Source: Candidatus Cloacimonadota bacterium (GTDB lineage: Bacteria > Cloacimonadota > Cloacimonadia > Cloacimonadales > TCS61). From it: a stretch of 64,000 nt of DNA. A program made the translations under genes and the position numbers. The notes under the pieces were generated by a model, which had not been told where the DNA came from, ran no database searches, and saw nothing but the letters and a program-made list of their open reading frames with translations. The stretch is from positions 2,736 through 66,735 of the forward strand of contig JAIORE010000190.1 in NCBI GenBank assembly GCA_021108315.1, in the 5' to 3' direction. The first letter of the stretch is position 1, and the number at the start of each line of letters is the position of its first letter. Below are positions 21,834 through 22,109 of this stretch, piece after piece.

Positions 21834-22007
21834 GGACAAATTTGACCATTTCCCTAAAAACAGCTTATAGATAAGCATCAACGATAAACCATAAACATAA
21901 AAGGACAAAAACGTCCACAGCAGTCAACATTAATCTATTTCTTTTATTTTATATAAGTTACAATAGAATATTTTAAATTCTTATAACATTTCCGGTCATT
22001 TACGTCC
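21834..22007. promoter_or_regulatory. Three GGWC-N6-GWCC palindromes, candidate activator-binding (UAS) sites
   Basis: GGACAAATTTGACC (21834), GGACAAAAACGTCC (21903) and GGTCATTTACGTCC (21994), all upstream of the sigma54-like site. Confidence 0.6.
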
Positions 22008-22093
22008 ATCCTAACTCACTTTTTCTACTTTTTAATTCTTATATATTTCTATTGTTATTATCAACTTCTTATACTCTATAGAGTTACCTCATT

Positions 22094-22109
22094 TGGCATC
22101 AAAAATGCA
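22094..22109 (+). promoter_or_regulatory. Putative sigma54 (-24/-12) promoter
   Basis: TGGCATCAAAAATGCA gives GG-N10-GC, lying directly downstream of a bEBP gene. Confidence 0.75.

What the first reader, a model, noticed from the sequence alone, without database searches (positions are those of the whole stretch)
21834..22109. Complete predicted enhancer-promoter: three GGWC-N6-GWCC sites plus sigma54 box right after the activator gene
Three 14-bp palindromes with AT-rich cores (21834, 21903, 21994) lie ~260, ~190 and ~100 bp upstream of a well-spaced TGGCA-N7-TGCA box. An AT-rich, bendable spacer lies between them. This is the classic bEBP layout and predicts the binding site of an uncharacterised TPR-bEBP that switches on the giant gene.
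Basis: partly seen in the sequence, partly recalled or inferred. Interest (0 to 1): 0.65.

Follow-up and report, generated by a model that had tools for sequence, protein, structure and literature searches.

The report
Sigma-54 enhancer-promoter for giant surface protein
The three palindromes and the sigma-54 box are real and conserved, and most likely form the private on-switch through which the neighbouring TPR-type activator turns on a small receiver-like gene and a giant surface protein in an uncultured Cloacimonadota bacterium; the design is a well-known kind of bacterial switch.

Summary
Observation confirmed; interpretation supported, with corrections. The three GGWC-N6-GWCC sites (21834, 21903, 21994) and TGGCAT-N5-ATGCA (22094-22109) are at the stated coordinates. 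The genome has 40 such sites (about 34 expected) but only two three-site clusters (0.00013 expected). Both lie between a TPR-AAA+-HTH_8 activator gene and a sigma-54 box.

Three orthologous loci keep all three sites at 257-260, 189-191 and 99-100 bp before the box. Invariant columns are 79-86% in the sites against 29% in the background. Related cassettes in at least ten other Cloacimonadota genomes share the layout and a proximal site 76-100 bp before the box, each with its own palindrome.

The residue opening the activator's recognition helix tracks the half-site. N/H loci use GGAC and GGTC; E/D loci use only GGTC. A tree built without the HTH needs at least two switches. This ties the sites to the adjacent activator.

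Corrections:
- The first gene driven is a 79-aa degenerate receiver-like ORF, followed by the giant gene.
- The spacer's length is conserved, not its AT content.
- The leader carries an inserted dispersed repeat.

The scan has noted similar sigma-54 cassettes on other DNA. Verdict: a new member of a known kind.

The parts
19254..21632 (+). Receiver-less enhancer-binding protein gene (792 aa): N-terminal TPR array, coiled-coil linker, sigma-54 AAA+ domain (Walker A GESGTGKE; loop NAFTGA instead of GAFTGA), lid, C-terminal HTH_8 with recognition helix NRKVIERRIKKY
   Evidence: Pfam: Sigma54_activat 1.5e-62, TPR_12 3e-48, AAA_lid_14 3e-23, HTH_8 4e-9; sequence; loop variant
21715..21737 (+). REP-like hairpin GTTCCCAAGC-N3/4-GCTTGGGAAC after the activator's stop codon. 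It is a dispersed repeat and a possible terminator or mRNA-end element. It is not part of the enhancer.
   Evidence: 57 copies genome-wide; the stem is conserved in the ortholog
21834..21847 (.). Distal enhancer site 1, GGACAAATTTGACC, 260 bp before the TGG of the sigma-54 box
   Evidence: 12 of 14 columns invariant in the 4-way ortholog alignment
21903..21916 (.). Enhancer site 2, GGACAAAAACGTCC, 191 bp before the TGG. This offset (181-195 bp) is shared by 9 GGWC-type loci.
   Evidence: 11 of 14 columns invariant
21994..22007 (.). Proximal enhancer site 3, GGTCATTTACGTCC, 100 bp before the TGG. The offset is 96-100 bp in 8 of 9 GGWC-type loci.
   Evidence: 12 of 14 columns invariant
22063..22073 (+). 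Conserved block AACTTCTTATA (AACTYCYTATA in orthologs), 21-31 bp before the TGG. Its function is unknown. In the window it overlaps a match to the IHF consensus WATCAANNNNTTR (22059-22071), which the orthologs do not keep.
   Evidence: 9 of 11 columns invariant against 29% background; IHF-like match in only 2 of 9 loci
22094..22109 (+). Sigma-54 -24/-12 element TGGCAT-CAAAA-ATGCA (GG 22095-22096, GC 22107-22108). The inferred transcription start is near 22120.
   Evidence: it is the only box scoring at least 8 of 11 in 21633-22209; conserved in orthologs and relatives as TGGCAY-N5-WTGCH; boxes scoring at least 10 of 11 number 57 genome-wide against 12 in shuffles
22126..22163 (+). Short dispersed repeat (AAACTTTGCGACTTAGCGTCTTTGCTGTGAG...) inserted in the 5' leader. 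It accounts for the 116-bp TGG-to-ATG distance here, against about 37-44 bp in the other cassettes.
   Evidence: at least 30 copies in the genome; absent from the three orthologs; usual distances
22210..22449 (+). First gene of the operon: a 79-aa degenerate, truncated receiver-like protein with no acidic pocket and no phospho-acceptor Asp. It follows a GAGGTG Shine-Dalgarno sequence. A homolog is the first gene of most cassettes examined.
   Evidence: no Pfam hit; the profile's best PDB matches are mostly receiver domains, E 0.012-0.5; AF2 gives b-a-b-a-b-a-b at pLDDT 62; best TM-scores 0.70-0.72 are to REC domains; the profile weakly hits the N-terminal REC part of NtrC-type activators
22484..31555 (+). 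Giant secreted protein (about 3020 aa from ATG 22484 after AAGGAGG; the longest ORF starts at 22454) with LamG-like and PMP-type repeats. It is the presumed main output of the promoter.
   Evidence: Laminin_G_3 5.6e-37, Chlam_PMP 6e-13; the ortholog starts MSYKTNLF with a signal-peptide-like N-terminus; paralogs follow the paralogous activators

Best explanation
The region 21834-22109 is the dedicated enhancer plus sigma-54 promoter of the activator gene that ends at 21632.

Inferred mechanism: dimers of the TPR-AAA+-HTH_8 activator bind the three GGWCR-W4-YGWCC palindromes through the C-terminal Fis-type HTH. A signal sensed by the TPR array releases the AAA+ domain to form a hexamer. The 85-bp spacer loops the hexamer onto sigma-54 RNA polymerase held in closed complex at TGGCAT-N5-ATGCA. 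ATP hydrolysis opens the promoter, with a start near 22120.

The transcript encodes a small degenerate receiver-like protein and then a giant LamG/PMP-repeat surface protein. It may also cover the second giant gene and the C25 protease, because no further sigma-54 box precedes them.

Shown here: the elements exist, they are statistically exceptional as a cluster, they are conserved in position and half-site sequence, and they covary with the activator's recognition helix. Inferred only: binding, looping, the transcription start, the signal and the extent of the operon.
For: - The sites and box are at the stated coordinates.
- Only two three-site clusters exist in 4.7 Mb, against 0.00013 expected. 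Both sit between a TPR activator gene and a sigma-54 box.
- rpoN is present once, and 36 Sigma54_activat genes are found.
- Orthologs L032, L044 and L045 (small ORF 71-86% identical) keep three sites at 257-260, 189-191 and 99-100 bp and the box TGGCAT-N5-ATGC[AT].
- Invariant columns are 79-86% in the sites, 75% in the box and 29% in the background. All 18 fixed G/C positions are invariant.
- Nine GGWC-type loci from seven genomes place the proximal site 89-100 bp and the second 181-195 bp before the TGG. Positions the search pattern left free are biased: R at position 5 in 24/25, Y at position 10 in 24/25, W in the core in 99/100.
- Paralogs C140, C179, C46 and C230, and relatives L006-L011 and L060-L072, share the layout but carry private palindromes.
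- Recognition helix versus half-site: N/H loci have 32 GGAC and 16 GGTC half-sites; E/D loci have 0 and 20.
- T[PA]KSLERRM goes with TGACGA-N2-TCGTCA in six loci.
- A tree of the AAA+ part without the HTH intersperses the labels, and well-supported branches force at least two switches.
- No credible ORF and no Rfam family explains the conservation.
Against: - There is no direct evidence of binding, of sigma-54 dependence or of the transcription start.
- The activator's sigma-54 contact loop reads NAFTGA, not the canonical GAFTGA. Its competence is assumed from the kept F-T-G-A.
- The three sites are 69 and 91 bp apart. This is much wider than in characterised enhancers such as NorR or NtrC (my recollection of the literature), so how three dimers would form one hexamer is unclear.
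- Covariation is confounded by shared descent. The four closest loci are one lineage.
- One ortholog contig (L022, also L055) lacks site 3 through a roughly 200-bp deletion. Either site 3 is dispensable or that contig is a defective or misassembled variant.
Confidence: 0.85

Rival explanations
1. The palindromes are operators for a different, unlinked transcription factor, for example a repressor or a nucleoid protein. The adjacent activator would bind elsewhere or act from solution.
For: No binding data exist. The sites are 69-91 bp apart, which is unusual for an enhancer that nucleates one hexamer. A further conserved block at 22063-22073 shows that other factors may act here.
Against: Each cassette carries its own palindrome at the same offsets. 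The activator's HTH is the only DNA-binding domain identified in the cassettes. The half-site base tracks the recognition-helix residue through at least two independent switches. No other GGWC cluster exists in the genome, which is not what a global factor would show.
Confidence: 0.07
2. The sites are bound by the activator, but mainly by its paralog or by both (cross-talk with the C111 cassette). The switch would then not be private to the adjacent gene.
For: The C111 sites (TGGTCA-N4-TGACCA) also fit GGWC-N6-GWCC, and one third of the half-sites at N/H-type loci are GGTC. The two activators are 44-51% identical and have similar HTHs.
Against: E/D-type loci never use GGAC (0 of 20), while the window's sites have 4 GGAC half-sites out of 6. 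This points to discrimination in at least one direction.
Confidence: 0.05
3. The sigma-54 box and palindromes are chance or relic sequence, and the operon is read from an unrecognised sigma-70-type or FCB-type promoter.
For: The genome-wide single-site frequency is near expectation, 40 against 34. The composite phylum-wide pattern was not more frequent than its reversed control, because of GC-rich genomes. The consensus scan found sigma-70-like hexamers at ordinary frequency.
Against: The positions and sequences are conserved across orthologs and across families. Sigma-54-like boxes are enriched 4-5 fold over shuffles. The box lies 37-44 bp before the small-ORF start in most cassettes.
Confidence: 0.03

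Closest known systems
NorR and the norVW control region of E. coli (three enhancer sites, all needed for activation)
   Same: A receiver-less activator with sensor, AAA+ and HTH parts. Three inverted-repeat sites lie upstream of a sigma-54 promoter. The regulator is dedicated to one neighbouring target. (Properties of NorR are from my recollection of the literature, not tested here.)
   Different: The sensor here is a TPR array, not GAF. The activator gene is co-directional and upstream, not divergent. The sites are 69-91 bp apart rather than tightly clustered. The half-site is GGWCR rather than GT-N7-AC. The output is a surface protein rather than a detoxifying enzyme.
NifA-type UAS/sigma-54 promoters (TGT-N10-ACA about 100-200 bp upstream, often with IHF between)
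   Same: Palindromic sites lie about 100-200 bp upstream of a -24/-12 promoter. The activator has no receiver. A spacer of conserved length presumably has to bend.
   Different: The motif and sensor differ. An IHF consensus is present in only 2 of 9 loci. A different conserved block (AACTYCYTATA) occupies the spacer in the ortholog group.
NtrC/NtrC1/DctD-type response-regulator activators (REC-AAA+-HTH_8)
   Same: The AAA+ and Fis-type HTH_8 modules are the same. The small ORF downstream is a distant homolog of their receiver domain.
   Different: The receiver-like module is a separate, truncated protein without the phospho-acceptor Asp, and it is encoded behind the promoter rather than fused to the activator. 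The N-terminus is TPR. The contact loop is NAFTGA.
Other sigma-54 activator/enhancer/promoter cassettes already noted by this scan on other DNA (TPR-GAF activator in an Eisenbacteria genome; GAF activator before T9SS cargo in a TA06 genome)
   Same: The overall design is the same: activator gene, then its own palindromic sites, then a -24/-12 promoter, then a small gene and a large secreted protein (AI notes that I did not re-test).
   Different: The phylum, sensor architecture, motif, fixed site offsets and receiver-like first gene all differ.

Membership tests
Sigma-54 (-24/-12) promoter | GG and GC dinucleotides separated by exactly 10 nt within a TGGCAC-N5-TTGCW-like context | tested here: met
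   TGGCAT-CAAAA-ATGCA at 22094-22109, 9 of 11 consensus positions
Sigma-54 (-24/-12) promoter | The organism encodes sigma-54 (rpoN) | tested here: met
   One Sigma54_DBD match, E 8e-49, in a 500-aa open frame on contig C36
Sigma-54 (-24/-12) promoter | Conserved in position and sequence upstream of orthologous genes | tested here: met
   Box kept in L032, L044 and L045 and in at least 15 related cassettes
Sigma-54 (-24/-12) promoter | Transcription starts about 11-13 nt after the GC and depends on rpoN and an activator | not testable with these tools
Bacterial enhancer-binding protein (bEBP) | Sigma-54 interaction AAA+ domain with Walker A and B motifs | tested here: met
   PF00158 E 1.5e-62 over residues 487-653; GESGTGKE and LFLDEIG read in the sequence
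Bacterial enhancer-binding protein (bEBP) | GAFTGA loop that contacts sigma-54 | tested here: inconclusive
   The loop reads NAFTGA. F-T-G-A is kept and the first G is replaced by N. Five of 26 activators in this genome and most of the clade have it. No paper in the library holds 'NAFTGA'.
Bacterial enhancer-binding protein (bEBP) | C-terminal DNA-binding HTH | tested here: met
   HTH_8 E 4e-9, residues 746-786
bEBP upstream activating sequence (enhancer) | Two or more inverted repeats roughly 80-200 bp or more upstream of the -24 element | tested here: met
   Three dyads at 100, 191 and 260 bp before the TGG
bEBP upstream activating sequence (enhancer) | Specific binding by the cognate activator | not testable with these tools
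   Indirect support only: the half-site covaries with the recognition helix through at least two switches
NorR-type three-site enhancer | Three closely spaced sites that together nucleate one hexamer, and a GAF sensor | tested here: not met
   Site spacings are 69 and 91 bp. The sensor is TPR, with no GAF hit. The switch works like this family in outline but is not a member.
Response-regulator receiver domain (small ORF 22210-22449) | (beta-alpha)5 fold with an acidic pocket and a phospho-acceptor Asp at the end of beta-3 | tested here: not met
   Only four beta-alpha units in 79 aa. The Asp position is G, K or N in the family alignment. Homology to REC is weak but consistent. The protein is receiver-like, not a functional receiver.

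The most novel reading that the evidence does not exclude
Cloacimonadota may carry a modular family of cassettes: TPR activator, then an enhancer of fixed geometry (sites about 100 and 190 bp before the box), then a sigma-54 promoter, then a stand-alone pseudo-receiver, then a giant surface protein. Two things would be new. First, one recognition-helix residue (N/H against E/D before the RK) would set base 3 of the half-site (A or T against T only), giving a natural specificity code for the Fis-type HTH of sigma-54 activators. Second, the pseudo-receiver made by the operon would feed back on its receiver-less, NAFTGA-loop activator.
Probability: 0.3. Interest if true: 0.6.

Novelty: new member of a known kind. 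Interest (0 to 1): 0.42.

Why it matters
The finding gives a concrete, testable binding site and promoter for an uncharacterised class of receiver-less TPR sigma-54 activators in an uncultured phylum. It links sigma-54 control to giant LamG/PMP-repeat surface proteins, in line with the view that sigma-54 governs the cell exterior. The set of cassettes with private palindromes and matching recognition helices is a ready-made natural dataset for working out how Fis-type HTH_8 domains read DNA. The fixed 90-100-bp geometry raises the question of how widely spaced dimers assemble an AAA+ hexamer. The switch itself follows a well-known design.

Tried and rejected
- IHF site in the spacer: the window matches WATCAANNNNTTR at 22059-22071, but only 2 of 9 loci do and the orthologs do not. 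Rejected as a conserved feature. The conserved block there is AACTYCYTATA.
- Composite pattern search across 232 genomes of the phylum (two sites plus TGGYA): forward matches (12) were not more frequent than the reversed control, because GC-rich genomes give chance hits. It was useful only for finding AT-rich true cassettes.
- Rfam scan of 21500-22600: nothing.
- Coding explanation for the conservation: only short low-complexity ORFs.
- Further sigma-54 boxes before giant gene 2, the C25 protease gene, or beyond it: none scoring at least 8 of 11.
- Literature searches (Cloacimonetes + sigma-54; Cloacimonadota + RpoN; TPR + enhancer-binding protein; NAFTGA): nothing describes this system.
- AF2 and Foldseek on the small ORF: low confidence (pLDDT 62, no hit with E below 1e-3). 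Treated as suggestive only.
- The larger small-ORF alignment (A3) was not sent to structure prediction, because its rows come from loci that tool does not accept.

Full report
**1. Observation**

- GGACAAATTTGACC at 21834-21847
- GGACAAAAACGTCC at 21903-21916
- GGTCATTTACGTCC at 21994-22007
- TGGCATCAAAAATGCA at 22094-22109, with GG at 22095-22096 and GC at 22107-22108, which is the GG-N10-GC spacing of sigma-54 promoters

The window has 5 matches to GGWC-N6-GWCC against 0.58 expected. In the whole 4.71-Mb assembly (31.5% GC) there are 40 matches against about 34 expected, so a single site means nothing. The 40 sites form exactly two clusters of three within 300 bp, where 0.00013 are expected. 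One cluster is this locus. The other is on contig C111.

**2. Surroundings**

- The ORF ending at 21632 (792 aa) has an N-terminal TPR array, a coiled-coil linker, a sigma-54 AAA+ domain (E 1.5e-62), an AAA lid and a C-terminal HTH_8. It has no receiver, GAF or PAS domain.
- The genome has one rpoN and 36 strong Sigma54_activat matches.
- Sigma-54-like boxes matching at least 10 of 11 consensus positions number 57, against 12 in shuffled sequence.
- Downstream of the box lie, in order:
  - a 79-aa ORF (22210-22449, after GAGGTG) with no Pfam match;
  - a giant gene (likely start 22484 after AAGGAGG, ending at 31555) with LamG-like and PMP-type repeats;
  - a second giant gene;
  - a C25 peptidase gene with a T9SS sorting domain.
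- No other sigma-54-like box lies before the later genes.
- The intergenic region holds no credible ORF and no Rfam family.
- The closest named relative is a contig of 'Candidatus Cloacimonas sp. 4484_140'. The phylum-level search returned 232 genomes. I take the organism to be a Cloacimonadota MAG.

**3. The paralogous cluster**

On C111 the three sites (TGGTCA-N4-TGACCA) lie 99, 189 and 330 bp upstream of TGGCAT-TAATA-TTGCA. They sit downstream of a 44-51% identical TPR activator gene. A homolog of the small ORF and then a paralog of the giant gene follow.

Of the 40 genomic sites, only four groups lie within 450 bp upstream of a correctly oriented sigma-54-like box:
- the three sites of this locus;
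- the three sites of C111;
- one site downstream of a further TPR-activator paralog (C49);
- one weak case (C97).

The regulon of this motif therefore looks local.

**4. Orthologs**

Three metagenomic loci encode small ORFs 71-86% identical to the window's: L032, L044 and L045. Their activator C-termini carry the same recognition helix. All three keep three GGWC-N6-GWCC sites at 257-260, 189-191 and 99-100 bp before TGGCAT-N5-ATGC[AT].

In the four-way alignment, invariant columns make up:
- 86%, 79% and 86% of the three sites;
- 75% of the box;
- 29% of the remaining intergenic sequence.

All 18 fixed G/C positions are invariant, while the cores vary.

One contig, L022 (the same sequence as L055), lacks site 3 through a deletion of about 200 bp between short direct repeats.

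A further block, AACTYCYTATA (window 22063-22073), is also conserved and unexplained. In the window it overlaps an IHF-consensus match, which the orthologs lack.

**5. Wider family and geometry**

- Nine GGWC-type loci from seven genomes in at least four GTDB families place the proximal site 89-100 bp and the second site 181-195 bp before the TGG. The third site varies.
- The spacer between the proximal site and the box is 84-86 bp in 7 of 9 loci, although its sequence is not conserved. Its AT content (69-82%) is close to the intergenic norm.
- Positions that the search pattern left free are strongly biased. The fuller consensus is GGWCR-WWWW-YGWCC-A.
- Other paralogs and relatives keep the layout of activator gene, two to four dyads, sigma-54 box, small ORF and large secreted protein. 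Each carries a different dyad:
  - CGTCYG-N4-YAGCCG;
  - TGTCG-N4-CGACA;
  - TGACGA-N2-TCGTCA;
  - AGACGA-N2-TCGTCT;
  - GAAACA-N4-TGTTTC.
- In most of these the box lies 37-44 bp before the small-ORF start. In the window the distance is 116 bp. A short dispersed repeat (22126-22163, at least 30 genomic copies) is inserted in the leader and is absent from the orthologs.

**6. Which protein binds the sites**

The activator's HTH is the only DNA-binding domain I identified in the cassettes. Its recognition helix tracks the dyad:
- [N/H]RKV[I/V]ER[R/K] goes with mixed GGAC and GGTC half-sites: 32 GGAC and 16 GGTC in 8 loci.
- [E/D]RK[V/A]VER[R/K] goes with GGTC only: 0 GGAC and 20 GGTC in 5 loci.
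- T[P/A]KSLERRM goes with TGACGA-N2-TCGTCA in six loci.

Shared descent could produce such a correlation, so I built a tree from the AAA+ and lid part with the HTH removed. The labels are interspersed. The N-type L062 (all GGAC) sits inside a clade of E/D types with 100/99 support. The E-type C111 (all GGTC) lies outside that clade, among N types. Well-supported branches force at least two switches. This is the best indirect evidence available that the adjacent activator reads these sites. It remains inference.

**7. The first gene product**

- A profile of 12 small-ORF homologs finds mainly receiver domains at the top of the PDB list, with weak E-values of 0.012-0.5. The position of the phospho-acceptor Asp is not conserved.
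- AF2 on four orthologs gives a b-a-b-a-b-a-b topology at pLDDT 62.
- Foldseek finds nothing with E below 1e-3, but the best TM-scores (0.70-0.72) are to receiver domains, including the NtrC1 receiver.
- Across the phylum the profile hits 66 of 232 genomes. Its weak hits fall on the N-terminal part of 450-480-aa NtrC-type activators.

I read the ORF as a truncated pseudo-receiver. Any role in feedback on the activator is speculation.

**8. Mechanism**

The steps below are inferred unless marked as shown.
1. Activator dimers bind the three dyads.
2. A signal sensed through the TPR array permits AAA+ hexamer formation.
3. The 85-bp spacer loops the hexamer onto sigma-54 holoenzyme at the box.
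4. ATP hydrolysis opens the promoter near 22120.
5. The small ORF and the giant surface protein are expressed.

Three things are unusual compared with characterised systems (properties of those systems are from my recollection of the literature):
- the 69-91-bp spacing of the dyads;
- the NAFTGA contact loop, shown here and absent from the searchable literature;
- the separate pseudo-receiver.

**9. Comparison, novelty and verdict**

The switch works like NorR, NifA or NtrC enhancer-promoters. It is not a member of the NorR type, because it has no GAF domain and its sites are not clustered. The scan has already noted similar cassettes in other phyla (those notes were not re-tested here). No paper in the library describes this Cloacimonadota family.

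It is a new member of a known kind with moderate added interest.

Noticed in passing
window 10050-10210: A second good sigma-54 box, TGGCAT-AACTT-ATGCA (10154-10169), lies before the S8 subtilase gene, whose likely true start is ATG 10202 (MKKTILL...). Two dyads precede it: TTCGCA-N7-TGCGAA (about 10062-10080) and TGCG-TTTT-CGCA (about 10089-10100). The gene just upstream is a TPR histidine kinase (8057-9829), not an activator, so the cognate activator is unknown.
   Followed up: partly
window 21715-21737: The hairpin GTTCCCAAGC-N3/4-GCTTGGGAAC after the activator's stop codon belongs to a dispersed REP-like family with 57 copies in the assembly. The stem is kept in the ortholog while the loop differs.
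   Followed up: partly
window 22126-22163 (another copy at about window 5496-5521): A short dispersed repeat (AAACTTTGCGACTTAGCGTCTTTGCTGTGAG...) with at least 30 copies in both orientations is inserted in the 5' leader of the operon. It is absent from the three orthologs. The 91-nt stretch 22110-22200 that contains the repeat folds into a hairpin of about -16.6 kcal/mol (RNA parameters).
   Followed up: partly
window 19254-21632 (loop FGHEKNAFTGA); also contigs C111, C140, C179, C49: The sigma-54 contact loop reads NAFTGA instead of GAFTGA in five of 26 activators of this genome and in most relatives of this clade (some have DAFTGA or NSFTGA). No paper in the searchable library contains 'NAFTGA'.
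   Followed up: partly
window 22063-22073: The conserved block AACTYCYTATA lies 21-31 bp before the -24 element (9 of 11 columns invariant in four orthologs). Its function is unknown. It is not an IHF consensus in the orthologs.
   Followed up: partly
L022 3942-4300 (same sequence as L055, G213:C94): The 'Candidatus Cloacimonas sp. 4484_140' contig carries a deletion of about 200 bp between short direct repeats. It removes site 3 and brings site 2 to about 30 bp before the sigma-54 box. This may be a natural variant or an assembly artefact. The MAG is placed in a different order from the window's genome, although this contig is a close ortholog, so the contig may be mis-binned.
   Followed up: no
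G000 contigs C140, C179, C111, C46, C230, C49: At least six further cassettes of TPR activator, private dyads, sigma-54 box, small ORF and secreted protein occur in the same genome. C46 and C49 carry a different small ORF family (MNSIIKIDKH... and MLSERINISD...).
   Followed up: partly
window 8057-9829 and many contigs (C20, C69, C9, C3): TPR arrays about 30% identical to the activator's sensor are widely expanded in this genome. They include a TPR histidine kinase in the window, which suggests a shared sensor module reused across signalling proteins.
   Followed up: no
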